Positions 31,992 to 64,000 of a stretch of 64,000 bases of DNA are shown here, in pieces (the stretch's first letter is position 1; every line of letters begins with the position of its first letter). The translations under genes and the position numbers were made by a program. A model generated the notes under the pieces. It was given only the letters and a program-made list of their open reading frames with translations. It was not told the DNA's origin and ran no database searches. Source of the stretch: a virus; IMG/VR virus record IMGVR_UViG_3300035670_000030, positions 79,731 through 143,730 of that record, one strand, 5' to 3'.

Positions 31992-33203
31992 AATATTTTT
32001 TACATTTTTATTTTCTTCTTGGACACTTTTTTTATTCATTTTAATTTCAGAAGATTCTACCTCACTATATTTTTTATAATTTGATGAAGAGCATTGTGGA
32101 CAAATTTCAGCATACATACCTTTATAACCACAACCAGTACAAACATATTGATTATCTTTCATTTCGTCAGATTTTTTTTCATATTTGTCTGCATCTTCGT
32201 TCTCAACAATAGATAAAGTTTCTTCGGCGGCTGTTGACTCTTGATTTTCTTTTGGTTTATCATAAGAAATAACAACACCACTAACTTCAGCAGCTGGGGT
32301 ATTAGTAAAACCAATTCCTAGTGGAAGAACATTTCCCTGAAGATTTAAAAGAACTAATTCTCCATCTTCTGTAAACCCATTGCCTCCAAAAACTTTAAGA
32401 CGATCTTTTAATTCTATAATTTCTTCTTCTTTTTCTATAATAGTTGCTTCAGCTAAATTTTTGCTTCCTTTCGCAACATTAAATTCATTAAACCCAAGTT
32501 CCCAACTTGCACTAACTGACAAGTATCTATCAGAAGACGGATCACTGCTAGTAACCAATTCAGCTGCAAATTCTGGATTTACAATTTTCCATACGTAACC
32601 AGAAAGAACAACATTAAATGGGCCTTTCATTCCCTTTACTTCTTCTAAAGTCAAAGGTTTACTACTACCAAACTCACTAAATCCATAACCAGTACAAACA
32701 CCAACAACCACTTTACGATTATGTTCAATATTAAATGGTTTATTAATAAAATTCTCAACCATTGCTAAAGCAACATCTGTGCTGATTATATGTCCATTTT
32801 TATTTCCACGATTAACAACGAAAGCATCAAAAGCAACTCCCATTAAATCACGATTAACATCAAGATCAACATTTTGTGGAAGATATTGTTTTAACTGGTC
32901 AATTGAAGCTACTGCTAAATATTTATCATCATCAAAAGGAACCATCGCTTGAACGATAATTCCATCAAATTTAATTGAGTATTTAAAATCTTTCATTGTA
33001 TCCATTTGTAAATTTACACTTTCTTCTTTTAATAGGGCAACATTTTTGAGTTTACTACCTACAATAATTTTATCTTGATTTGTTTTTGTTAATTCTAACG
33101 CGCACAATGATATTGGACGGGTAAATGAAATTGATAAATCTGATAAATCAAATCCTGTTTTTGGATCGATATTATTAATAACAGCTTCTTCGTATGTAGG
33201 CAT
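31329..33203 (-). CDS. Prohead protease fused to a C-terminal scaffold coiled coil
   Basis: KPFNIEH (His) and SVSASWEL (Ser) protease-like motifs; CxxC...CxxC insert; E/K-rich coiled-coil C-terminus. Confidence 0.75.
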   Translation of the reverse strand: MPTYEEAVINNIDPKTGFDLSDLSISFTRPISLCALELTKTNQDKIIVGSKLKNVALLKEESVNLQMDTMKDFKYSIKFDGIIVQAMVPFDDDKYLAVASIDQLKQYLPQNVDLDVNRDLMGVAFDAFVVNRGNKNGHIISTDVALAMVENFINKPFNIEHNRKVVVGVCTGYGFSEFGSSKPLTLEEVKGMKGPFNVVLSGYVWKIVNPEFAAELVTSSDPSSDRYLSVSASWELGFNEFNVAKGSKNLAEATIIEKEEEIIELKDRLKVFGGNGFTEDGELVLLNLQGNVLPLGIGFTNTPAAEVSGVVISYDKPKENQESTAAEETLSIVENEDADKYEKKSDEMKDNQYVCTGCGYKGMYAEICPQCSSSNYKKYSEVESSEIKMNKKSVQEENKNVKNIMQLKNIDDITDDSIKEVAASEVRDFISNRIADLAKEWQSKVEEKETALKAAEDQIAELKTSLESIKADSEKVKEEFTKIQEDLKAKEIEANFQRRMALLDEEFDLTDEDRSIIAEDLNAIENDEQFEKWYKKFSTFAAAKKKMAKAEMMKKEAEMKKEEMKEEKASEPSEVVASEEKTVEEVISSAEVKEEVLPNASSPQEVSLVEKISAAFNKNSVKIK

Positions 33204-45135: not shown

Positions 45136-46248
45136 TTAGCCTTGCACCATTTCATCAATATCAATTCCACGAATTACTGCTTTTAATTCATCCATAGAAG
45201 ATAAACGTTTAGCCTCTTCTTCGAGATTCTGCTTCTGAGCTTCAGCCAAATTGATAATACTTTTTCGACGTTCTTCGTCTTTCCATGCTTGCACTAAATT
45301 AAGAATACTTGCGTTTTCTTGTTTTCTTTCTTGTAATTTTTTAGAACGATCATCTACGAGAGATTTATATAATTTATTTTGTCTTGTGCGACATTGATTA
45401 TATTCTGTTTGCAAACTACTAATAGCTTCATTCAAGCTCATTTTAATATTGCGGCCCTCATCCTCTTCAGATGCTTGTCTTAATAATTGACGCAAGTCTT
45501 CTACTTGCTGTAAAATAGTGGAAGCCGTTACAACTTCTGTACAAAGGGTAATAAATTGGTCTAATTCTTCTTGTGTCAAATCATCTTTATCATAAGTATA
45601 ACGAATAAAAGCATCTTCAAAGAGTTTTCTATCATCTTCACGACGATACGTATTAATTTGGTAACAAAAACTAAAAGTATTTAAATATCTTTGAAGCATT
45701 TCCACTTGTTTGAGTTGCATTGCTTTGAGTTTCTTTTCCTCCCAACCCAAATTAAGATATTTATTAATTCTATATAAAGTTTGATCCATACGACGCGGCG
45801 GGAAATATTCCCCAAGAGGACTTGGGGTGGTATTCTCTGTTTCTTTTGGGGTGTAAACTGTCATGTCCAAATATGTAGGATCTGCTTTTTGTAGTTTATT
45901 AACATATTTGTTGACTTCACGAGATTCGAGACTTAAATGCGTTAAATTATTATTTTTAAATAAAATTTTTGCCATATCAAGATAGTGCTGATTTTTATAA
46001 TTATTTTTTATAAATTCTTCTTGATCTTTTGTAAGTGAAACGCGATCTCTTTGAAAAACAGAACGATTTTTATATTCAATATTATTGTCTAATAAATATT
46101 TTTTTAAAATTCGCCCTTCTTTGCTACGACTATCTATATTTTCATTATTATACGTATAAGCTGTAATTTCTGTAAGAGTTGCTTCTGGATTTTTTTGTAA
46201 AATTTCTGTTAATCGATTTTTTTGTTCTAATGTTAAAATATCATCCAT
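45136..46248 (-). CDS. Helical protein, possible terminase small subunit
   Basis: 370 aa, coiled-coil C-terminus, upstream of the nuclease and TerL; assigned by synteny only. Confidence 0.4.
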   Translation of the reverse strand: MDDILTLEQKNRLTEILQKNPEATLTEITAYTYNNENIDSRSKEGRILKKYLLDNNIEYKNRSVFQRDRVSLTKDQEEFIKNNYKNQHYLDMAKILFKNNNLTHLSLESREVNKYVNKLQKADPTYLDMTVYTPKETENTTPSPLGEYFPPRRMDQTLYRINKYLNLGWEEKKLKAMQLKQVEMLQRYLNTFSFCYQINTYRREDDRKLFEDAFIRYTYDKDDLTQEELDQFITLCTEVVTASTILQQVEDLRQLLRQASEEDEGRNIKMSLNEAISSLQTEYNQCRTRQNKLYKSLVDDRSKKLQERKQENASILNLVQAWKDEERRKSIINLAEAQKQNLEEEAKRLSSMDELKAVIRGIDIDEMVQG

Positions 46249-46958
46249 TATAATACCTCCCTTACTACTTCACGCGCCTTTTGTAAAATTTTTGATTTAA
46301 TTTTACTAATTTGTCTGTATGCTGGACGACCTTCTTTTAAACTTAATTTATAACCCATTTTTTTAGCAACCTCTGCTTCTTCAAGGTGCTGTAAGAACAT
46401 ATAATCATATACTTTCCATTCTATTATACTTAAATGTTTTTTCATAATTTCATGAAAAAGTGGCATTAAATTTTCTATATCTAATGAATTTTCTGTATCA
46501 TGTAAAACATTTTCTAATGTTGTTTCTGGGTTATCATGATTAGGACTATGAATACTCAACGGAAATTTTACATCATAAGCAGATTTTTTACCCTTTTCCC
46601 ATTTGGCGTAATCTTTACATGAATTATTTTGCGTTCCATATATCGAGCAACCATAATCACCAGTATTAAATGGGCATTTTAAACACGGTCTAGAAAAATT
46701 AGAATAATGATTTCTGAGCATGTTAGTCATTTGGTGATTGATTACTTGATTAAGCCATGGGCGCATAGGTCTTTCTGGATCCCATTTCTCCCATTTTTTA
46801 TAAATATGTATTCTTAATCTTTGAGCAACATCTTCAAAATCCATCCAAGCTATGGCCGTCAAATGCCAACGATGTTTACGCTTCTGAATTTCAGAATTGA
46901 TAATTTCTATCGATTCTTCAAATGAAGGTCTATTAACGCCTTTTTTCTTTCGTGGCAT
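46248..46958 (-). CDS. Phage sigma-factor-like protein (candidate late sigma) with a Cys-rich insert
   Basis: DFEDVAQ.LRIHIYKKWEKWDP..P..PWL region-2-like motif; C-terminal HTH (EAEVAKKMGY...ISKIK). Confidence 0.75.
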   Translation of the reverse strand: MPRKKKGVNRPSFEESIEIINSEIQKRKHRWHLTAIAWMDFEDVAQRLRIHIYKKWEKWDPERPMRPWLNQVINHQMTNMLRNHYSNFSRPCLKCPFNTGDYGCSIYGTQNNSCKDYAKWEKGKKSAYDVKFPLSIHSPNHDNPETTLENVLHDTENSLDIENLMPLFHEIMKKHLSIIEWKVYDYMFLQHLEEAEVAKKMGYKLSLKEGRPAYRQISKIKSKILQKAREVVREVL

Positions 46959-56047: not shown

Positions 56048-56137
56048 TCGAAACACCTCCTTTCATATACTATATATTACAGCAATTTAAATGCCAGAAA
56101 AGTTACAATATTGTTTCATTATGAATTAACAACATAT

Positions 56138-57001
56138 CTATTTAATTCTATATTCTTTGCAAATTTTTTTATATAGTGCATACGTATTTTTACGAATTTC
56201 TTTTACCTTTTTTCCATCCCACAAATGGAGTACGCCTACTTTTAAACCATAAGAATAACTAAATTGTGAATATTTAATTGGTATTAAGGTAGTATATGTT
56301 TTTAATTTCTTTTTCATCATTATCAGAAATAAAACTTGCTCAATTATGACTGGGATTGTTGCATAGGCAAGTTCATCGAATGTGGTTTTAAATTTTGTTA
56401 TTAATTCATCGCCATCTAAAAAATCTTTATGTTCTATAATACAATCAATCATTTTTTGCGCGGTTTCATTTATTATTGGAATATTATTTTCTATACAGGA
56501 TCCAAATATAGCAAAATTGACAGACATGAATTTTTGGTCTAAATCTAAATTTAATGATTTATTTAGAACATCTAAGATGACCGCGACCCCATTTTTATAA
56601 AAATCGCATCCCTTTCCAAAGTTTGAACTCCAAGGTTCATCATGGTAGGTAAAAAATGGTGCATTCTTAATTTTTTCTAAAAAAGAGTTATTTAATATAA
56701 AGAAATCAAAATCAATATGTATAAATGGACGTTTTTCCATGCTCATTGTCAAAATTTTACCAGCACTCCATACACTTCTAGGTAATTTATTAGTTATTTT
56801 ATCATCCAATAAAATTATTTCATCGTAAGGAATATTTTTTAAAAGTTCGGCTCCTATTTTATCTGTATATAATACTGTTTTCAATCCCGTATTCTTTTTG
56901 GCGTAATACTGCGAGCAAGTAGCAAATATTTTTGTATCTTCATCAGTAGCATTACTTCCAATTCTATTCCCCAAAAAACTAAATATAATAACTGGTTCCA
57001 T
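56138..57001 (-). CDS. Putative nucleotide-sugar transferase (GT-A-like)
   Basis: LYTD..G, W..GKI, PFIHIDFD (DxD) and IEQ motifs. Confidence 0.6.
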   Translation of the reverse strand: MEPVIIFSFLGNRIGSNATDEDTKIFATCSQYYAKKNTGLKTVLYTDKIGAELLKNIPYDEIILLDDKITNKLPRSVWSAGKILTMSMEKRPFIHIDFDFFILNNSFLEKIKNAPFFTYHDEPWSSNFGKGCDFYKNGVAVILDVLNKSLNLDLDQKFMSVNFAIFGSCIENNIPIINETAQKMIDCIIEHKDFLDGDELITKFKTTFDELAYATIPVIIEQVLFLIMMKKKLKTYTTLIPIKYSQFSYSYGLKVGVLHLWDGKKVKEIRKNTYALYKKICKEYRIK

Positions 57002-57245: not shown

Positions 57246-57363
57246 GTCTAGAGATTGAAATTTCACCCCCCCGCCACCTAAAATTAAAACGAACGTTCGA
57301 ATTTTTTCAAAAATGGGGAGGGGTTATCAACAAAAATAATTTGCAGAATCTTAAAAAAATCGC

Positions 57364-57391
57364 TTGCTTTTCTGCCGTCCTGTGGTAGAGT
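57364..57391 (+). promoter_or_regulatory. First early sigma70-type promoter (TTGCTT-16-TAGAGT, extended -10), leaderless
   Basis: ATG lies 6 nt after the -10; upstream A-tracts. Confidence 0.75.
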
Positions 57392-57397
57392 GTAGAC

Positions 57398-57580
57398 ATG
57401 AAGAAGAAATACTACACCAGCACAGAGATCATCGAATACGCCGAACAGACTGGCGCGGTCTGCACGTTCGCCAGCCTCAACCTCCGCATCTTCAAGGGAT
57501 GGACTGCGAAGGGTAGCTATGAGGTCAAGTTCCACAGGATCGAGCCTTGCGTGTGGCAGAAAAAAATCGTCAAAAAATAA
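57398..57580 (+). CDS. Small early protein
   Basis: 60 aa, leaderless promoter. Confidence 0.7.
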   Translation: MKKKYYTSTEIIEYAEQTGAVCTFASLNLRIFKGWTAKGSYEVKFHRIEPCVWQKKIVKK

Positions 57581-57615
57581 CTTGACTTTTTAAGGATCTC
57601 TGATAGATTAAAGAC

Positions 57616-57846
57616 ATGAACACATACGATAACGAAATCATCCACAAAGGCAAAGAATACTACCTTTCGACGGAGTATGACTTTGATCACACTGATACCC
57701 TGCAACTCTCTGGCTTTGTCTTGACTGATGAAGACGGCGAAGAAATCTCGCAAGAGGCCTTCGAAGCAAACGAAGATCTTTATGATCACGTTTGCACTAT
57801 CCTTGCAAACGAAAGCGCCGTCTGCTATGGCGGCGCACCTTGCTAA
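57616..57846 (+). CDS. Small, very acidic early protein
   Basis: 76 aa with 18 D/E vs 2 K; promoter TTGACT(57582)-16-TAGATT. Confidence 0.75.
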   Translation: MNTYDNEIIHKGKEYYLSTEYDFDHTDTLQLSGFVLTDEDGEEISQEAFEANEDLYDHVCTILANESAVCYGGAPC

Positions 57847-57850
57847 CACT

Positions 57851-57937
57851 ATGACACACATCATTATGACATACATCGCAGAAGCACTCGCCGTGGTGCT
57901 CATCCTCCTGCTTGGCGTTGCGATCCTGTCGATCTAA
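57851..57937 (+). CDS. 28-aa single-TM peptide
   Basis: MTHIIMTYIAEALAVVLILLLGVAILSI*; stop codon lies inside repeat element 1. Confidence 0.55.
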   Translation: MTHIIMTYIAEALAVVLILLLGVAILSI

Positions 57938-58010
57938 GTTGTTGTAAATCAACAGCTTACACAGGCGCGCCCCGCCGCGCGCCGTAAGTCCTTGATAATG
58001 AAGCACTTAC
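57934..58010. repeat. 77-bp cassette-boundary element, copy 1
   Basis: 27-bp palindrome, 23-bp GC core, 27-bp palindrome. Confidence 0.93.
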
Positions 58011-58097
58011 AAATGTCAAGCAAAAAAGATAAAAAAAATTTTACACAATCGCAAAAAAATCCCTTGCTTTTTTCGTGCGCTGTGCTATTCTATAAAC

Positions 58098-58445
58098 ATG
58101 AAAGATAAAAAACTATTCAACGTCAACGGAACCCTCTGCAAGCTCGTCATCTCGGAGGATCACGAGGATGACTGCATCAAGCTCTGGCACGAACTCGTCA
58201 GCGTAGAGACTGGCAAAACCATCCACACCCTCTCGTGGTCGCCTTACTCCATCCCTTCAGATGAAGAAGTGCAACAGATCATCGACCTCGGTTTGCCAGA
58301 TGGATTGCGTTGGCACAACTCTCATCCCATGTCTGGGATGAACTTCTGCTCTGACATTCTCGCCATGTTCCTCGCTGGTGAGGAGCATCCCCAAGGCGGC
58401 AAGCTGGAGCTTGTGTTCCGTGTGCGTCATGCGAATGCCGCATAA
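58098..58445 (+). CDS. Early hypothetical protein
   Basis: 115 aa; promoter TTGCTT(58064)-16-TATTCT, leaderless. Confidence 0.8.
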   Translation: MKDKKLFNVNGTLCKLVISEDHEDDCIKLWHELVSVETGKTIHTLSWSPYSIPSDEEVQQIIDLGLPDGLRWHNSHPMSGMNFCSDILAMFLAGEEHPQGGKLELVFRVRHANAA

Positions 58446-58488
58446 AAAATCTCTTGCAATAAACCTCAACATCCCATATCCTAACAAT

Positions 58489-58707
58489 ATGAACATCACC
58501 AACGACCACTTCAACACGCAACCGCAATCCGACGAATATGCCAGCGAGCACGAGGAAGTGCGCGGCACGTTTGCGGCTGAACCAGCCGCAGAGCAGGAGC
58601 CGCAACCCTACGATGGGTGGGAAGGCTGCTGGCCTGGGGATGGATCGGGCATGGACGACCTCGCGGACATGCACGCGAACGAAGCCAATGACTACTACGA
58701 CGAGTAG
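58489..58707 (+). CDS. Small, very acidic early protein
   Basis: Start re-called from promoter TTGCAA(58454)-17-TATCCT; 72 aa with 19 D/E. Confidence 0.75.
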   Translation: MNITNDHFNTQPQSDEYASEHEEVRGTFAAEPAAEQEPQPYDGWEGCWPGDGSGMDDLADMHANEANDYYDE

Positions 58708-58833
58708 TGTCATAGTCGTGTCATAATTTTCCGAACGTTTCGATGCGTGTCTCCATGGCGCGGGAATAAACGAAGAGGAAACGAAGCGCCCGTGTTCAAA
58801 CGGGCGTTTCAATTTGCTGAAATTCAATGTTGC

Positions 58834-58910
58834 GTAAACCATTGATATTCAACCACTTACATGGGCGCGCGGGGCGTGCGCGCGTAAGTCCTTGATATTC
58901 AACGACTTAA
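58834..58910. repeat. 77-bp element, copy 2 (core inverted)
   Basis: Same 27/23/27 geometry; core reads GGGGCG instead of CGCCCC. Confidence 0.92.
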
Positions 58911-59034
58911 GTAGTGCCTTACGAACCCGCATGAATACTGGCTTCGCGGGTGTCAAGCTTTTTTTTGCAAAAAAATTTTCATCGAATCGAAAAAAACTGG
59001 TTGCTTTCTGCGCGTTCTGTGGTATTCTGTATAC

Positions 59035-59134
59035 ATTGATAGGACAAGAGGTTTTCCACCGAGAAGGGTTGATCGCCGGAAAAAAGGTGGAAACGTAAGC
59101 GTCCGACCGTAATGGCAAGGCCTACTCCTATCAA
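59035..59134 (+). ncRNA. Candidate structured ~100-nt ncRNA
   Basis: Promoter TTGCTT(59001)-16-TATTCT has no ATG at +1; terminal stem TTGATAGGA/TCCTATCAA; internal stem TTTCCACC/GGTGGAAA. Confidence 0.6.
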
Positions 59135-59178
59135 AACTTTTTCTTGACTCTCACCCTTAACCTGCTAAAATAATCACT

Positions 59179-59370
59179 ATGAATAGAAACTACAGAAGCT
59201 GGCGCGACGAAGAACGCGAAGCAACCCTCGACTACCCGCTGGCCGTGGATCGTGAAGATCCCGCCTACCAGCACAACCCGAACGCCTACGAGCGTGAACT
59301 TGAGCGGTTGAACCGCTTGGAGGGTTGGGAGCGTAGCCGTGGCGGTTACTACCGCCGCAGCTACCGCTGA
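59179..59370 (+). CDS. Small charged early protein
   Basis: 63 aa; promoter TTGACT(59144)-16-TAAAAT. Confidence 0.75.
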   Translation: MNRNYRSWRDEEREATLDYPLAVDREDPAYQHNPNAYERELERLNRLEGWERSRGGYYRRSYR

Positions 59371-59415
59371 AAAAAGTCGCTTGACTTTCAGCCCCATTTC
59401 AACGATACTTTTAAC

Positions 59416-59574
59416 ATGACAGAAAACACCACAACTGGCTGGCCCGAAGTCTGGAACTTCGACGAACCCCAAGACGATAACCTCACGCCCGAACAAGCGT
59501 TCGACATCCTTTTCGGCTATGCCGAAGAACGTCACCGCAACGATCCGTGCGCTCATCCCGAACCCAAACACTAA
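59416..59574 (+). CDS. 52-aa acidic early protein (not in the ORF track)
   Basis: MTENTTTGWPEVWNFDEPQDD...; promoter TTGACT(59381)-17-GATACT. Confidence 0.65.
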   Translation: MTENTTTGWPEVWNFDEPQDDNLTPEQAFDILFGYAEERHRNDPCAHPEPKH

Positions 59575-59578
59575 CACT

Positions 59579-59809
59579 ATGACACAACAAGACGGCATCA
59601 TCAAGTCGCTTGAAACCCTCATCAAGCACGAAAAAACAATCCAAGCTCAAGAGGCTTGCATCGTAGAACTGCGCGACATTCTCGCAAAAGCTCTCCACAC
59701 CATCACCATGCACGAACACAAGCTAAACCTCTTGTGTGGCGTGTCCACCACTCTCGCCGTCGAACTGACTGCGGTGAAAAACAAACAGGTTTCTTTCGGA
59801 GTCAACTAA
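59579..59809 (+). CDS. Small coiled-coil early protein
   Basis: Start re-called at MTQQDG, 4 nt after the upstream stop. Confidence 0.65.
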   Translation: MTQQDGIIKSLETLIKHEKTIQAQEACIVELRDILAKALHTITMHEHKLNLLCGVSTTLAVELTAVKNKQVSFGVN

Positions 59810-59810
59810 C

Positions 59811-59966
59811 ATGAGCAAAATCATTATGACAATCGACACGCGCCCTCTTGCGAGGGCGATTGAACGTAGCGTTCGCAAGACCACTTGCAAGCCGTCCTTC
59901 GCCATGCGTGTCAAGAAAAAATTCGCGCGCAGGGCTAAGTTTTTTCGCGGTTGGTCTGAAGAGTAA
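59811..59966 (+). CDS. 51-aa basic early protein (not in the ORF track)
   Basis: MSKIIMTIDTRPLARAIERSVRK...GWSEE*; stop codon lies inside element 3. Confidence 0.6.
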   Translation: MSKIIMTIDTRPLARAIERSVRKTTCKPSFAMRVKKKFARRAKFFRGWSEE

Positions 59967-60039
59967 AGCGTTGTAAATCAATGACTTACGGCGGCGCGCC
60001 CCGCCGCGCGGCGTAACCCATTGTAAATCAACGACTTAC
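59963..60039. repeat. 77-bp element, copy 3
   Basis: 27/23/27 geometry. Confidence 0.93.
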
Positions 60040-60051
60040 AGAATCATCTAC

Positions 60052-60067
60052 GCAAGTGCCGTGCCAA
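60052..60067 (-). promoter_or_regulatory. sigma54 (RpoN) -24/-12 consensus facing element 3
   Basis: Minus strand reads TTGGCACG-GCAC-TTGC. Confidence 0.6.
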
Positions 60068-60140
60068 GTGTGACTGTGTCATAAAAATAAAAAATAAAAA
60101 AATCTCTTGCTTTTCTGTGGCTCTGTGCTATTCTTTAAGC

Positions 60141-60320
60141 ATGAAAGATAAAGCACCACAAAAAGGCCAACTCTTCGCGGTTGGAACAAAAGTCTATCGC
60201 GTGATCCGCAACGAAGGGGACAAGACCCACGTTCACCATCACGGGCAAATGGCCCTGTTCTACACGCGTCATCTCAAACCTGTCAGCCGTGACCGAGTCG
60301 CGGAATACTTGGGAAAATAG
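60141..60320 (+). CDS. Small basic early protein (possible SH3/KOW-like barrel)
   Basis: Start re-called from promoter TTGCTT(60107)-16-TATTCT. Confidence 0.7.
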   Translation: MKDKAPQKGQLFAVGTKVYRVIRNEGDKTHVHHHGQMALFYTRHLKPVSRDRVAEYLGK

Positions 60321-60356
60321 TTTGACAATCACCACAAAACCTAACAGAATCATAAC

Positions 60357-60545
60357 ATGACTAAAAAACACTTCACCGCCATCGCTGAAATCGTAGGGAA
60401 ACGCTTGCGCGAAAAAATCACCGCGCCAATCGGAGAATACGAGGCAATCGAGTTTGTAGCTAATGACTTGGCCGCATACTTCAAAACTCAAAACTCCAGC
60501 TTTGACAAAAATCGCTTTTTGGAAGCTGTCTATACCCAGAAATAA
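60357..60545 (+). CDS. Small early protein (MTKKHF.AIA...N..FD..RFL.A type)
   Basis: Promoter TTGACA(60322)-17-CAGAAT; helical pattern seen in small phage early proteins. Confidence 0.75.
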   Translation: MTKKHFTAIAEIVGKRLREKITAPIGEYEAIEFVANDLAAYFKTQNSSFDKNRFLEAVYTQK

Positions 60546-60549
60546 TCAC

Positions 60550-60729
60550 ATGAAAAAATACATCACATTCGACCGCATTGCCTATGCAATGTCTCTCGCA
60601 ACCTTCATCTTCATCGCTTGCACACTCTGTGCCGCTTGCGTGAACCTCCACAACAGAACAACCCAAAACCAAAAACAAATGCACGAAGAAGTTCGCGCCA
60701 TGTTTGCTCACGTTGAAAAACCTCTATGA
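60550..60729 (+). CDS. Small single-TM early protein
   Basis: MKKYITFDRIAYAMSLATFIFIACTLCAAC... Confidence 0.6.
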   Translation: MKKYITFDRIAYAMSLATFIFIACTLCAACVNLHNRTTQNQKQMHEEVRAMFAHVEKPL

Positions 60730-60926
60730 TCACGCCCAACATACAAAAAGCCCTCGAATCAAACGGAGTCCGCTTCTATGCAAAAGACTTTCTCATGGAA
60801 GGCTTGCGGAAAGACTGCGTTGACGCCGTGCATGATGCTCAACTTGTTTATGAGTTGCTGAAAGAACGCATGGAAATAATCCTTGACCTTAAACCCAAAT
60901 TCCCCGAAAATCAAAACAATGAGTAA
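60726..60926 (+). CDS. Small early protein
   Basis: 66 aa; ATGA overlap with the upstream gene. Confidence 0.65.
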   Translation: MITPNIQKALESNGVRFYAKDFLMEGLRKDCVDAVHDAQLVYELLKERMEIILDLKPKFPENQNNE

Positions 60927-61110
60927 AGAACAAGTCAAAGCCGTGTGCGACTTCTCGCACGATGTCATAATGAAAGTCAAGAAGCTCGTCGGCATCAAGC
61001 CGCGCCAAGAGTCGCTTCTGTGTCATAGTCTGTGGCACCTCAACACCTCCAACTGGGTTGAGCGCATCACGGCAAATGGCATCATTGATCGCTACATCGT
61101 AAAGCACTAA
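60919..61110 (+). CDS. Small early protein
   Basis: Start re-called from promoter TTGACC(60883)-17-GAAAAT; stop codon lies inside element 4. Confidence 0.65.
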   Translation: MSKEQVKAVCDFSHDVIMKVKKLVGIKPRQESLLCHSLWHLNTSNWVERITANGIIDRYIVKH

Positions 61111-61175
61111 TAATTAAGCACTTAGGGCGGCGCGCCCCCCGTGCGAATGTAAGTCGTTGTAAATCAAACACTTAT
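61099..61175. repeat. 77-bp element, copy 4
   Basis: 27/23/27 geometry, more degenerate. Confidence 0.88.
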
Positions 61176-61293
61176 GAATAGGTGCAAATACTATCATACC
61201 AGTGAGAGAATGTCAAGAATAAAAATGCAAAAAATAAAAATAATTTTCTAAAAAATCTCTTGCGTTTTTTCATATGTGTGCTATCTTGTATTC

Positions 61294-61515
61294 ATGTTAA
61301 GTAAAACACCACAAGTGGGAGATAAGATCATGTATCGGTTCTCCCAAGGCAAAAAGAAATACCCCGCAACAATCATCGCCATCGAGGGCGAACACTGCGT
61401 GTTCACGCTGGATGGTGACTCTTACGATCCTACGCCCACCAAGTGGCCTATGTGGCATGGCCTCCTCTACGACTACGACGAGACCCTTGTCAAGAAAAAA
61501 AGAAAGTGGTGCTAA
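61294..61515 (+). CDS. Small early protein (SH3/Tudor-like pattern)
   Basis: Start re-called from promoter TTGCGT(61260)-16-TATCTT; stop codon lies inside element 5. Confidence 0.7.
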   Translation: MLSKTPQVGDKIMYRFSQGKKKYPATIIAIEGEHCVFTLDGDSYDPTPTKWPMWHGLLYDYDETLVKKKRKWC

Positions 61516-61588
61516 ACCACTAATAATCAAACACTTACGCTAGCGCGCCCCGCCGCGCGGCGTAACTCGTTGAAAATCAACAACTTAG
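61512..61588. repeat. 77-bp element, copy 5
   Basis: 27/23/27 geometry. Confidence 0.92.
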
Positions 61589-61600
61589 GCATTATGACAT

Positions 61601-61616
61601 TCAGAAAGCGTGCCAA
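61601..61616 (-). promoter_or_regulatory. sigma54-like motif facing element 5 (degenerate -12)
   Basis: Minus strand reads TTGGCACG-CTTT-CTGA. Confidence 0.4.
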
Positions 61617-61699
61617 GTGTGACTACCAAGCACAAAAAAATATTTTTTAAATCGCAAAAAATTCCTTGCATTTTTGGGAACCTGTGGTATTCTTACAAC

Positions 61700-61939
61700 A
61701 TGAACATCACCAAAGAAGAACTCCGTGACTCTCTCGTTAACGCTCGCGCCGCCTTGGCTCTGCAAGTCCGCGACCATTACAAACACCGCAACGGCTTTTG
61801 CGGAAAATCTTTTCGCGGTATGATCCGCGAAAATCTCCGCGCTTTGCGCTTGTTGGGTAATCTCGAAACCATCGACGCGAAAGTCTACACGTTCGACGCT
61901 CGCATCTTGGGTCGTGTCAAAAAAGCTCTTGCCAAGTAA
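61700..61939 (+). CDS. Small basic early protein
   Basis: Start re-called from promoter TTGCAT(61666)-16-TATTCT. Confidence 0.7.
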   Translation: MNITKEELRDSLVNARAALALQVRDHYKHRNGFCGKSFRGMIRENLRALRLLGNLETIDAKVYTFDARILGRVKKALAK

Positions 61940-61963
61940 AGCAAACTCTGACAAAATCACCAC

Positions 61964-62647
61964 ATGAAACTACTAAGCACCAATAACACCAAAATCAAAA
62001 AAGGCGAAAAACTCGGCTGGCGCACCTACGGCTTGTCGCTTTCTCCCGCTGGCAAGTCTGGAAAACAATTCTGTCCGCATCGTTCGGCTGGCTGTGAGTT
62101 TGCCTGTCTCGACACTTCGGGCATGGGCATTTTCTCAAACGTGCAAGACGCTCGCCTTGCAAAGTCGCGTTTCTTCATTGATAGCCGCAACGATTTTCTC
62201 GCACAGTTGCATAAAGAATTGCACAACGCTGAAAAGTGGAGCGCAAAAAATCAAATGCCCGTTGCTTGCCGTCCGAATGTCCTTTCTGACCTTCCTTTCC
62301 ATAAGCTCATCGACATGGCACGCTTTCCATCAATCCAGTTTTACGATTACACGCCGAACCTTCAACGCATGATGCAGTTTCTGAATGGCGAACTACCGAA
62401 AAATTACCATCTGACTTTTTCGCGCAAAGAGGATAATCAGCATCGTGTTCATGCGGTTGTTGCCGCTGGTGGCAACGTGGCGGTTGTCTTTAATGAGTTG
62501 CCCGAAACCTATCTCGGCAAGCCTGTCATAAACGGAGACGAAAGCGACTTGCGTTTTCTCGACCCGCAAGGCGTCATCGTCGGACTCAAAGCAAAGGGCA
62601 AAGCTCTAAAAGATCAGTCTGGATTCGTGGTGCAAGTTGGTGTATAA
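61964..62647 (+). CDS. Gp88-like phage protein (Cys-containing)
   Basis: C....S.GC...CL..SG.G, R.NVLSD, QFYDYT, NYHLTFS and GDESDLRF.D motifs; promoter TTGCCA(61929)-17-CAAAAT. Confidence 0.75.
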   Translation: MKLLSTNNTKIKKGEKLGWRTYGLSLSPAGKSGKQFCPHRSAGCEFACLDTSGMGIFSNVQDARLAKSRFFIDSRNDFLAQLHKELHNAEKWSAKNQMPVACRPNVLSDLPFHKLIDMARFPSIQFYDYTPNLQRMMQFLNGELPKNYHLTFSRKEDNQHRVHAVVAAGGNVAVVFNELPETYLGKPVINGDESDLRFLDPQGVIVGLKAKGKALKDQSGFVVQVGV

Positions 62648-62656
62648 TGAGCAACT

Positions 62657-62728
62657 ATGACAATCCTAACCTTGCTCGCTGTGTGTGGCTTGTGTGCTTT
62701 TGCAATTTATAACAACGAAAAAAAATGA
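62657..62728 (+). CDS. 23-aa hydrophobic peptide
   Basis: MTILTLLAVCGLCAFAIYNNEKK*; ATGA-coupled to the next ORF. Confidence 0.4.
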   Translation: MTILTLLAVCGLCAFAIYNNEKK

Positions 62729-62883
62729 CCTTCAATCTAATCGCACGAAAAAATCTGTTTCGCTTGTCTGAATACTTTTTCCACTTGGCTCTGTGGTGGG
62801 AACGCGCTGGCGTTATGACACTCTCTAACGGGTTTGTCATAGCGTGGGAGTATTGCCTCGACGCACGCGATAAGTTGAGATAA
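62725..62883 (+). CDS. 52-aa early protein (not in the ORF track)
   Basis: MTFNLIARKNLFRLSEYFFHLALWW...DKLR*; stop codon ends 1 nt before element 6. Confidence 0.6.
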   Translation: MTFNLIARKNLFRLSEYFFHLALWWERAGVMTLSNGFVIAWEYCLDARDKLR

Positions 62884-62884
62884 C

Positions 62885-62961
62885 GTAAAGCGTTGATAAT
62901 CAACGACTTACGGCGGCGCGCCCCGCCGCGCTGCGCAAGTGCTTGATATTCAATGACTTAC
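62885..62961. repeat. 77-bp element, copy 6
   Basis: 27/23/27 geometry. Confidence 0.93.
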
Positions 62962-62973
62962 GCAATATGCTAC

Positions 62974-62989
62974 GCAGGAAGCGTGCCAA
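62974..62989 (-). promoter_or_regulatory. sigma54 -24/-12-like motif facing element 6
   Basis: Minus strand reads TTGGCACG-CTTC-CTGC. Confidence 0.55.
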
Positions 62990-63090
62990 CATAGGCTTAA
63001 ACGAGCGTTTGAAAATTCGTCAACAAAAATAGTTTCTAAAAATGCAAAAAAAATCGTTGCACTCTCATGCCCTGCTGCTATTCTTTACCC

Positions 63091-63225
63091 ATGCAAGCGA
63101 ACTCCATCATCAACGACGACTTCAACACGCAAATCCAAAGCGACGAATTCGCTTCGGAATATAATGCTTGGCTCGACGAGCAGGAACTGCAATACTGGCG
63201 CGAAATCGAAGCGAAAGGAAACTAG
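63091..63225 (+). CDS. 44-aa acidic protein, paralogous to the N-terminus of 58489-58707
   Basis: NDDFNTQIQSDEFASE vs NDHFNTQPQSDEYASE; promoter TTGCAC(63057)-16-TATTCT. Confidence 0.7.
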   Translation: MQANSIINDDFNTQIQSDEFASEYNAWLDEQELQYWREIEAKGN

Positions 63226-63229
63226 TTTT

Positions 63230-63421
63230 ATGACAAACACAAACCCACTGGAAGGCTTCGTCTCCGTTTGCTGCGGAGCCGAACACGACATCAACGCCGA
63301 ATACCATATGCTCAACGAAAGCATCGTGGGCGGCTGCTCGGTCTGCGGACGTTACTCGGAGTTTGACATCTTTGAGAACTTCGTAGAAAATTCTCTTGAC
63401 CTCGAAACCTCTAACCTCTAA
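63230..63421 (+). CDS. Small acidic Zn-finger-like protein
   Basis: SVCCGA...GCSVCG; start re-called at MTNTNP. Confidence 0.65.
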   Translation: MTNTNPLEGFVSVCCGAEHDINAEYHMLNESIVGGCSVCGRYSEFDIFENFVENSLDLETSNL

Positions 63422-63433
63422 TCTCTCAACTCT

Positions 63434-63880
63434 ATGAACCAAGCAAACATCGTAATCAGCGCATACGGCAACGGCATCGCTGTCGGACTCAACGGAACCA
63501 AAGAAGAAATCGAACGCACGTTCAATCGCTTCTTTAACTGGGGCGCAACTGGCATCGGTGAACTCGGCAGTTACTTGCACGAACTCTCTGACAACTTCGC
63601 TTACTTCCTCTCGACGGAAGCGGATATGCTTCGCGCTATGACATACGAAACTATGACACGCTGGCAAGACTCACCTGTGAGCGAACAATACAAAGCGCGT
63701 CCGCGCTTCCACAAGAAACCGAACGGCAAAAAGTTTCGCGCTGACGCAGAGCAAGCTGCGCGTGACGAATACGACTCGTTCCCACGCGAGAGCTTCATGC
63801 TGTTCGCTAAAACTCCCACTCATATCTATCAGCAACTCGATGGAGGCGCGCCCGATTGGGTGAGCGAGACAGAGGACTAA
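63434..63880 (+). CDS. Early hypothetical protein
   Basis: 148 aa; promoter TTGACC(63396)-17-TAATCT. Confidence 0.75.
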   Translation: MNQANIVISAYGNGIAVGLNGTKEEIERTFNRFFNWGATGIGELGSYLHELSDNFAYFLSTEADMLRAMTYETMTRWQDSPVSEQYKARPRFHKKPNGKKFRADAEQAARDEYDSFPRESFMLFAKTPTHIYQQLDGGAPDWVSETED

Positions 63881-63953
63881 TCTCTGTCATAGTCGTGTCA
63901 TAGTAAACGCTCGTGCAAACGGGCGTTTTACTTTTGCCCAAAATGAATGTGTT

Positions 63954-64000
63954 GTAAAGCGTTGAAGATCAAGCACTTACGGGCGCGCGCCCCGCCGCCC
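63954..64000. repeat. 77-bp element, copy 7 (truncated by the window end)
   Basis: Left palindrome 63954-63980 plus GC core. Confidence 0.9.

What the first reader, a model, noticed from the sequence alone, without database searches (positions are those of the whole stretch)
60040..62989. Inward-facing sigma54 motifs at an identical distance from three elements
Seen on the minus strand: TTGGCACG-GCAC-TTGC (60067-60052), TTGGCACG-CTTT-CTGA (61616-61601) and TTGGCACG-CTTC-CTGC (62989-62974). Each is separated from the element's right end by exactly 12 bp. Established: the RpoN consensus is YTGGCACG-N4-TTGC with +1 about 12 nt after the -12 GC, so +1 would fall on the element boundary. Element 4 instead has a leftward sigma70-like TTGACA(61216)-17-TAGTAT starting just outside it. 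Inference: the elements may be transcribed as a family of antisense or structured RNAs, or RpoN holoenzyme is parked there as a roadblock or decoy. Caveat: two of the sites share a 16-bp identical flank (CGTGCCAAGTGTGACT) and may not be independent.
Basis: partly seen in the sequence, partly recalled or inferred. Interest (0 to 1): 0.8.

Follow-up and report, generated by a model that had tools for sequence, protein, structure and literature searches.

The report
Conserved sigma54-type sites beside phage repeats
Three backward-facing sequence motifs that look like binding sites for the bacterial sigma-54 RNA polymerase sit at a fixed distance from repeated elements in a phage's early genes. 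The same arrangement is strictly conserved across a whole lineage of large uncultured phages, so it is almost certainly functional, but nobody has yet shown what binds it.

Summary
TTGGCACG occurs exactly three times in the 64-kb window. All three are on the minus strand, each 12 bp from the right arm of an intergenic 'arm - GC core - arm' element.

The window is the end of a 143.7-kb uncultured phage. The sites lie in a 48%-GC block of tiny plus-strand early genes, each starting right at its own sigma70-type promoter (leaderless).

Related phage contigs gave 96 elements. In 47 of them TTGGCA sits at the identical offset. None has a one-mismatch version. All 47 keep TG at -14/-13, while the 4 nt between the two blocks and the 12-bp spacer vary.

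The family consensus is TTGGCAYG-N4-YTG(C/A). It fits the sigma54 -24/-12 consensus everywhere except -12, which is C in 24 copies and A in 23.

Five related genomes carry 2-8 sites each, always on one strand.

Six elements, including element 4 here, instead carry TTGACA-17-TA(G/T)TAT facing the arm at the same distance.

No phage sigma54 or enhancer-binding activator was found. The host is unknown.

The arms show no compensatory changes, so a structured RNA is not supported.

Best reading (about 0.45): host sigma54-polymerase sites acting as activator-gated antisense promoters that start at the arm edge.

This is a new variant of a known kind.

The parts
60052..60067 (-). Sigma54-type -24/-12 site beside element 3: TTGGCACG-GCAC-TTGC. 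It matches the full consensus. The predicted +1 is near 60040, the base before the arm.
   Evidence: (zero mismatches to TGGCAC-N5-TTGC)
61601..61616 (-). Sigma54-type site beside element 5: TTGGCACG-CTTT-CTGA, with A at -12. The predicted +1 is near 61589.
   Evidence: An A at -12 also occurs in the confirmed E. coli hydN promoter (PMC4591121).
62974..62989 (-). Sigma54-type site beside element 6: TTGGCACG-CTTC-CTGC. The predicted +1 is near 62962.
61188..61216 (-). Sigma70-type leftward promoter beside element 4: TTGACA, 17-bp spacer, TAGTAT, with TG before the -10. It occupies the place of the sigma54-type site.
   Evidence: 10 of 12 matches, TG present. The same promoter sits at the same distance in five related flanks, and three of the copies read have different spacers.
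59962..60039 (.). Element 3: 27-bp palindromic arm, GC-rich core, second arm. The arm starts are 50 bp apart.
   Evidence: (50-bp spacing in 184 of 192 flank readings)
61511..61588 (.). Element 5, same architecture.
62884..62961 (.). Element 6, same architecture.
61098..61175 (.). Element 4, same architecture. It is partnered by the sigma70-type leftward promoter.
61495..61521 (-). Minus-strand terminator-like hairpin followed by a T run, just past element 5. It would end a leftward RNA of roughly 90 nt started at 61589.
   Evidence: Pattern match only; seen for this copy only.
60107..60143 (+). Forward early promoter of the next cassette: TTGC at -35, TGnTATTCT extended -10, and the ATG 6 nt after the -10 (leaderless). 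It lies 40 nt from the sigma54-type site. At elements 5 and 6 the gap is 50 and 68 nt, so the site is tied to the element and not to this promoter.
   Evidence: Plus-strand coding is confirmed by the third-codon-position substitution excess.

Best explanation
The three sites are copies of a conserved sigma54-class (-24/-12) promoter module. It is a fixed-geometry appendage of the 'arm - GC core - arm' elements that separate the leaderless early-gene cassettes of this lineage of roughly 120-180 kb phages.

Shown:
- A bipartite motif, TTGGCAYG-N4-YTG(C/A), is kept exactly while its surroundings drift and recombine.
- It is always 12 bp from the arm, always on the strand opposite the genes, and always on the promoter-proximal side of the element.
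- A sigma70-type promoter replaces it at the same distance in some copies.

Inferred:
- Host sigma54 RNA polymerase binds here.
- It would start leftward transcription within a base or two of the arm edge (about 60040, 61589 and 62962).
- The RNA would run through the element and into the 3' end of the upstream cassette as an antisense transcript, in the manner of lambda oop RNA.
- Sigma54 promoters are silent until an ATPase activator acts, so this would make early-gene counter-transcription conditional on a host activator. The sigma70-type copies would be the constitutive form.
- The palindromic arm just downstream of the start (an IHF-consensus palindrome) would serve as a protein-bound operator or bend, not as an RNA hairpin.
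For: - Match to the sigma54 consensus at every defined position except -12. TGGCA, Y at -21 and G at -20 (44 of 47), a 4-nt gap, then Y at -15, T at -14 and G at -13 in 47 of 47. The three window sites resemble ChIP-verified E. coli sites such as zraP, pspA, astC and hydN (PMC4591121).
- Purifying selection. Among 192 element flanks, 47 have exact TTGGCA at the same offset and none has a one-mismatch version. TG at -14/-13 was not used for selection and is 47 of 47, against 8 of 145 in other flanks. Pairwise identity is 0.47 in N4, 0.52 in the 12-bp spacer, 0.40 upstream and 1.0 for TG. Unselected BLAST-based conservation shows the same two islands.
- The copies sit in 36 different combinations of upstream gene end and right flank.
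- In five related genomes, all 27 matches lie on one strand per genome and the reversed control pattern gives 0. All but 2 in each of G002 and G004 lie inside the early block.
- Six flanks carry TTGACA-17-TA(G/T)TAT facing the arm, with the -10 ending 13-14 nt from the arm. Three copies read in full have different spacers between identical hexamers.
- The distance to the forward promoter varies (40, 50, 68 nt) while the distance to the arm is constant.
- A minus-strand hairpin plus T run follows element 5.
- There is a precedent for a sigma54-like promoter in a phage: Pseudomonas phage YuA (bioRxiv 10.1101/2023.10.13.562163).
Against: - The -12 base is C in only 24 of 47 copies and A in 23. 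In the 50 intergenic E. coli ChIP sites read, it is C in 43 and A in 3.
- The T before TGG is invariant here but variable in E. coli sites.
- There is no leftward gene. The plus-strand genes are the real ones, so the product could only be non-coding or antisense.
- No sigma54 gene and no enhancer-binding activator exists in this phage or in five relatives. The Sigma54_activat hits are RuvB-like AAA+ proteins.
- The host is unknown, so rpoN cannot be checked. Only 17 of 144 genes have a Shine-Dalgarno-like sequence.
- No conserved enhancer-like sites were identified upstream of the motif.
- No expression or binding data exist.
Confidence: 0.45

Rival explanations
1. The motif is the binding site of another DNA-binding protein, from the phage or the host. 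This protein would dock next to the arm-bound protein to build a nucleoprotein boundary at the end of each cassette. The likeness to sigma54 promoters would be coincidental.
For: - The strict 12-bp register with the arm suggests protein-protein contact on DNA.
- The arms behave as protein-site palindromes, not hairpins.
- -12 is A as often as C, and the T before TGG is invariant, both unlike E. coli sigma54 sites.
- There is no phage sigma54 or activator.
Against: - Every one of the 11 defined sigma54 consensus positions, and the one-turn spacing, is compatible with the family consensus. By my own rough estimate, that is below about 1 in 100,000 for an unrelated 16-bp motif.
- A bona fide promoter type (sigma70) occupies the same place and orientation in six copies. 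This points to polymerase rather than to a plain architectural factor.
Confidence: 0.25
2. Host sigma54 holoenzyme binds but never fires. The stable closed complex would serve as a boundary against read-through from the upstream cassette. Alternatively, the multiplied sites on replicating phage DNA would soak up sigma54 and blunt sigma54-dependent host stress responses.
For: - Sigma54 holoenzyme binds most E. coli sites in a transcriptionally inactive state (PMC4591121).
- The elements have no U tract, so they are not classical terminators.
- There are 2-8 sites per genome.
- There is no phage activator.
Against: - Roadblock repression by bound sigma54 holoenzyme was tested genome-wide in E. 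coli and effectively ruled out under those conditions (PMC4591121).
- A pure decoy needs neither fixed orientation nor an exact 12-bp register with the arm, yet both are invariant.
- The sigma70-type substitute at the same place is an active-type promoter.
Confidence: 0.18
3. The motif has no function of its own. It is carried along by descent or gene conversion, as part of a repeat unit that spreads by recombination between cassettes.
For: - The whole intergenic unit is repeated: a 105-nt repeat family in the window.
- Two window copies share a 16-bp flank.
- Cassettes are clearly shuffled among relatives.
Against: - The adjacent positions (N4, spacer, upstream) have drifted to about 40-52% pairwise identity. 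TTGGCA and TG remain invariant, and there are no one-mismatch copies in 192 flanks.
- There are 33 distinct 16-mers.
Confidence: 0.07

Closest known systems
Sigma54 (RpoN) -24/-12 promoters, e.g. E. coli pspA, zraP, astC, hydN
   Same: TGGCA at -24, T-G at -14/-13 one helical turn away, Y at -21, G at -20 and a 4-nt variable gap. Site 60052-60067 matches the full consensus. An A at -12 has a confirmed precedent in hydN (PMC4591121).
   Different: - -12 is A in half of the family copies.
- The sites face away from any gene, into a repeat element and antisense to the upstream cassette.
- No enhancer sites were identified.
- The activator and sigma factor must come from an unknown host.
Sigma54-like promoter of Pseudomonas phage YuA
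   Same: A phage that relies partly on host sigma54 for transcription. One start site there was matched to a sigma54-like promoter (bioRxiv 10.1101/2023.10.13.562163).
   Different: YuA has a single sense promoter. Here there are 2-8 antisense copies per genome, welded at a fixed distance to a repeat element.
PeSL (promoter-early stem-loop) cassettes of T4-type phages
   Same: Composite, repeated intergenic regulatory units (palindrome plus early sigma70 promoter). They bound small variable early ORFs and act as recombination points for modular shuffling (PMC2839356, PMC4122927). Here 47 copies sit in 36 flank combinations.
   Different: - There is no sequence relation.
- PeSLs have a simple terminator hairpin and no backward-facing promoter.
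- Here the palindromes show no hairpin covariation and carry a -24/-12-type site.
Lambda oop RNA (pO) and P22 sar RNA (from general knowledge)
   Same: A promoter placed downstream of a gene and facing back. It makes a short antisense RNA over the gene's 3' end or neighbouring start. For element 5, a roughly 90-nt RNA ending at a hairpin plus T run is possible.
   Different: Those promoters are sigma70-type, single-copy and experimentally shown. Here the RNA is only predicted.
BIME/RIP elements of enterobacteria and Correia elements of Neisseria (from general knowledge)
   Same: Repeated intergenic palindromic units that combine GC-rich palindromes with IHF consensus sites and can carry promoters. 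Each arm here holds TCAA-N4-TTA in both orientations.
   Different: Those are chromosomal elements, not phage elements, with a different order of parts. None is known to carry a sigma54-type site at a fixed distance.

Membership tests
Sigma54-dependent promoter | GG at -25/-24 within TGGCAC | tested here: met
   TTGGCA(C/T) is present in all 3 window sites and all 47 family copies. No one-mismatch variants occur among 192 flanks.
Sigma54-dependent promoter | GC at -13/-12 within TTGC | tested here: inconclusive
   T at -14 and G at -13 are invariant (47 of 47). -12 is C in 24 and A in 23. In the window it is C, A, C. In the E. coli ChIP sites read, -12 is C in 43 of 50 and A in 3 of 50, including the confirmed hydN promoter.
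Sigma54-dependent promoter | Fixed one-turn spacing (GG-N10-GC) | tested here: met
   The 47-sequence alignment is gap-free and has no spacing variant.
Sigma54-dependent promoter | The organism supplies sigma54 (rpoN) | not testable with these tools
   The host is unknown. No Sigma54_DBD is present in the phage or in five relatives. Two MAGs that hold 1.2- and 1.6-kb phage-like contigs do encode rpoN, but binning of such short contigs is not evidence of a host.
Sigma54-dependent promoter | A AAA+ enhancer-binding activator and its binding sites | tested here: not met
   This was tested for the phage only. The Sigma54_activat matches belong to RuvB-like proteins (RuvB_N plus RuvB_C) or to a generic AAA+ protein. 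Host activators cannot be examined, and no conserved enhancer was identified.
Sigma54-dependent promoter | Drives a downstream gene or RNA from a start about 12 nt after -12 | not testable with these tools
   There is no leftward gene; the plus-strand genes are the real ones. The predicted starts fall on the arm edge. No transcript data are available.
   Three-hairpin model: 79.1% of cells paired against 80.3% in shuffles, with 500 of 500 shuffles at least as high. Long-hairpin model: 75.7% against 78.6%. Rfam gives no credible match.
PeSL-type composite regulatory cassette | Repeated palindrome plus early promoter bounding small variable ORFs, found at recombination junctions | tested here: inconclusive
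   The architecture and the shuffled contexts fit. There is no sequence homology, no U-tract terminator, and recombination junctions were not mapped.

The most novel reading that the evidence does not exclude
A lineage of large uncultured phages has built host sigma54-polymerase sites into the repeat elements that close each early-gene cassette. Each site gives an activator-gated antisense promoter whose start is locked to a protein-bound palindrome. This would be a previously undescribed way for a virus to couple shut-off (or insulation) of its leaderless early genes to a host stress-signalling pathway. The -12 A variants might allow initiation that depends less on an activator.
Probability: 0.3. 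Interest if true: 0.8.

Novelty: new variant of a known kind. Interest (0 to 1): 0.62.

Why it matters
Sigma54 promoters are almost unknown in phages. Where they are known, they drive genes in the sense direction. Here a -24/-12-type site is multi-copy, antisense, and held at single-base register to a palindromic repeat across many uncultured phage genomes. That is the signature of a working part.

If host sigma54 polymerase binds it, three things follow:
- It would show a new route by which phages tap an activator-dependent host transcription system.
- It would give a concrete case of functional antisense or intergenic sigma54 sites, whose role in bacteria is still debated.
- It would explain how cassettes of leaderless early genes that lack classical terminators are delimited or switched off.

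The motif is also a handy marker for finding the early regions of this phage lineage in metagenomes.

Tried and rejected
- **TTGGCA as a sigma70 -35.** The hexamers 16-18 bp downstream read T(A/T)TTGC or similar and lack the -7 T. The TTGACA box that lies 6 nt upstream in some copies has no usable -10 either. Rejected.
- **Structured RNA.** There is no covariation for either fold. My own pair test on 93 elements gave pairing at or below shuffled levels. The only Rfam hit is a chance one (snR75, 22 bits, E 0.31).
- **Phage-encoded sigma54, activator, HU/IHF or T7-like polymerase.** None was found. For the T7-like polymerase family, the control genomes also gave nothing, so that search is uninformative. 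Two sigma70-family genes are present, but such factors need a spacer of about 17 bp, not 4.
- **Host identification.**
  - No close DNA match among isolated phages.
  - The large terminase subunit is only 22.5-25.4% identical to those of Bacillus and Clostridium siphophages.
  - The 227-aa early protein has 42.5-47.8% identity to proteins of many unrelated phages.
  - The genome-collection scan returned only two short true matches, in an Alphaproteobacteria MAG and a Thiobacillus MAG.
  - The window has no tRNA.
  - The Bacteroidota-type TAnnTTTG box is not enriched: 10 of 144 upstream regions, against about 8 expected by my own estimate.
- **Other strict-consensus sigma54 sites in relatives.** They are few, and none outside the early block was seen in more than the G002/G004 pair.
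- **Direct-repeat (response-regulator type) reading.** In this reading TTGACA, TTGGCA and YTGM would form a 12-bp periodic array. It holds in only a subset of copies. Rejected.
- **Clustering of spacer sequences by single linkage.** The clusters chained into one, so it was uninformative for subfamilies.
Full report
**What the window is.** The window is the last 64 kb of a 143,730-bp linear virus record, estimated 82% complete. It is a tailed phage with a 2000-aa tape-measure protein, a large terminase subunit and two sigma70-family genes. GC content is about 30% throughout, except for the last 7 kb or so (window 57300-64000), where it is 45-50%.

That block holds many small plus-strand genes. 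Each has an A-rich tract, a TTGC-type -35, a TGnTATTCT extended -10, and an ATG exactly 6 nt after the -10. The mRNAs would therefore be leaderless. The plus-strand frames are real: substitutions against relatives pile up at third codon positions, for example 0.07/0.05/0.29 for 61964-62647. That gene also matches phrog_1617 at 2.9e-62.

**The elements.** Seven intergenic elements divide the block. Each consists of a 27-bp palindromic arm (consensus GTAAGT-NN-TTGA-NNN-TCAA-NN-ACTTAC), a GC-rich core and a second arm, with arm starts 50 bp apart. They begin at 57934, 58833, 59962, 61098, 61511, 62884 and 63953. The last is cut by the contig end.

TTGGCACG occurs three times in 64 kb (0.70 expected). 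All three are on the minus strand, each 12 bp from the right arm of elements 3, 5 and 6. The bipartite pattern occurs 3 times in the block against 0.024 in shuffles. Element 4 has TTGACA-17-TAGTAT with an upstream TG in the same place. It is the only strong minus-strand sigma70-type match in the block. The distance from the motif to the next forward promoter varies (40, 50, 68 nt), while the distance to the arm does not. The motif therefore belongs to the element.

**Relatives.**
- A scan of viral contigs with an arm-plus-core pattern found the same elements in many contigs. Several come from records of 104-178 kb. Two short true copies also turned up in genome bins.
- I made a census that did not use the motif for selection. 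It covered 96 elements read on both sides, giving 192 flanks. TGCCAA (the complement of TTGGCA) sits at exactly offset 23 after the arm in 47 flanks. No flank has a one-mismatch version there. All 47 also carry CA at offset 14-15, which is TG at -14/-13; only 8 of the other 145 flanks do.
- The 47 copies align without a gap. They comprise 33 different 16-mers. Pairwise identity is 0.47 in the 4-nt gap, 0.52 in the 12-bp spacer and 0.40 upstream, but 1.0 for TG. Conservation computed from unselected BLAST alignments shows the same two islands.
- The copies lie next to 21 kinds of upstream gene end and 15 kinds of right flank, in 36 combinations.
- In five related genomes, three of them complete, all 27 matches lie on one strand per genome, and a reversed control pattern gives none. 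All but two per genome in G002 and G004 cluster in the GC-rich early block.
- In 45 of 47 copies the core has the same orientation relative to the motif.

This is purifying selection on the motif itself, not hitch-hiking.

**What the motif resembles.** The family consensus, read on the motif strand, is TTGGCA-Y-G, four variable bases, Y-T-G, then C or A. Every defined position of the sigma54 consensus (TGGCACG-N4-TTGC) and its one-turn spacing is compatible with it. The one departure is -12, which is C in 24 copies and A in 23.

I read the 50 intergenic ChIP-verified E. coli sites in PMC4591121. There, -12 is C in 43, T in 4 and A in 3. The A cases include the experimentally confirmed hydN promoter. 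So each phage site is individually within the range of bound sites, but the A frequency is unusual. Site 60052-60067 is a perfect consensus match.

No sigma70-type reading works, because there is no usable -10 at 16-18 bp. The two conserved blocks are too close together for any sigma70-family factor.

**A second promoter type at the same place.** Six flanks, including element 4 of the window, carry TTGACA, a 17-bp spacer and TA(G/T)TAT facing the arm. The -10 ends 13-14 nt from the arm. Three copies that I read in full have different spacers between identical hexamers. Two unrelated promoter types in the same orientation and register argue that leftward initiation into the element is the selected feature. 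Predicted starts fall 1-7 nt before the arm: about 60040, 61589 and 62962 for the sigma54-type sites, and about 61181 for element 4.

**What the transcript would be.** It would not be a structured RNA. Neither three separate hairpins nor one long hairpin is supported by compensatory change, and observed pairing is lower than in every shuffle (my own test). The inner 'stem' positions vary freely, while the symmetric TAAG/TTGA/TCAA/CTTA blocks stay fixed. That pattern fits a dimeric protein site on double-stranded DNA.

Each arm contains the IHF core TCAA-N4-TTA in both orientations. Rfam finds nothing credible. A leftward RNA would be antisense to the 3' end of the upstream cassette. For element 5, a minus-strand hairpin plus T run at 61521-61495 would end it after roughly 90 nt, much like lambda oop RNA. 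I did not find an equivalent terminator for elements 3 and 6.

**What is missing.**
- Neither this phage nor five relatives encode sigma54.
- None encodes an enhancer-binding activator. The Sigma54_activat hits are RuvB-like or generic AAA+ proteins.
- The host is unknown, and no cultured relative exists.
- Shine-Dalgarno-like sequences precede only 17 of 144 genes.
- The two MAGs that contain short phage-like contigs do have rpoN, but that is weak evidence.
- The parked-roadblock idea is weakened. Roadblock repression by bound sigma54 holoenzyme was tested in E. coli and effectively ruled out under those conditions (PMC4591121).

**Known comparisons.** A sigma54-like promoter in a phage has a precedent in Pseudomonas phage YuA. 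The overall layout of repeated composite intergenic units bounding small variable early ORFs recalls the PeSL cassettes of T4-type phages.

**Verdict.** The best reading is a host sigma54-polymerase site acting as a gated antisense promoter locked to the arm (about 0.45). The rivals are a different docking protein (0.25), silent sigma54 binding as a boundary or sink (0.18), and descent alone (0.07). This is a new variant of a known kind. It stays untested until binding or transcript data exist.

Noticed in passing
window 57300-64000: This block is 45-50% GC in a phage that is otherwise 30% GC. It holds about 20 tiny plus-strand genes, nearly all with their own sigma70-type promoter and an ATG 6-7 nt after the -10 (leaderless). 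The same block spans about 12-17 kb in complete relatives.
   Followed up: partly
window 57934-63993 (arms of all seven elements): Each 27-bp arm holds the IHF core TCAA-N4-TTA in both orientations. The arm starts are exactly 50 bp apart in 184 of 192 flank readings. The variable inner positions pair less often than chance, as if hairpin or cruciform formation were avoided.
   Followed up: partly
window 58833-58910: Element 2 has its GC core inverted relative to the others. It has no sigma54-type site on either side. Its right flank holds TGTCAAGC (a minus-strand TTGACA) 41 nt from the arm.
   Followed up: partly
window 56082-56096 (-): TGGCATTTAAATTGC is a one-mismatch match to the strict sigma54 consensus. 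It lies in the AT-rich region just past the 3' end of the minus-strand gene 56138-57001. No gene lies downstream of it, and no equivalent was seen in relatives.
   Followed up: partly
outside the window: G000 45274-45288 (+): A perfect TGGCAC-N5-TTGC match lies near the 3' end of a plus-strand gene that faces a convergent minus-strand block. It may be chance.
   Followed up: no
window 58794-58815, 62995-63016, 63913-63934 and 57283-57304: A small palindrome, AAACG-NN-CGTTT, recurs beside several elements. In relatives it often lies about 35-55 nt upstream of the sigma54-type site. Its function is unknown.
   Followed up: no
window 46248-46958 (-) and G000 74631-74840 (-): Two phage-encoded sigma70-family factors (Sigma70_r2 matches). 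They suggest that middle or late genes are read by host core polymerase with phage sigma factors.
   Followed up: partly
outside the window: G000 32179-32636 (+): A full-length one-piece tmRNA gene (RF00023, 133.8 bits) is encoded by the phage.
   Followed up: partly
L043 and L059 (related viral contigs): A variant element family with a shorter, different GC core (GGCCGGCGCGCCGGC type) and the same arms. In the copies read there is no sigma54-type site at the fixed offset; some have TTGC/TTGACG boxes instead.
   Followed up: no
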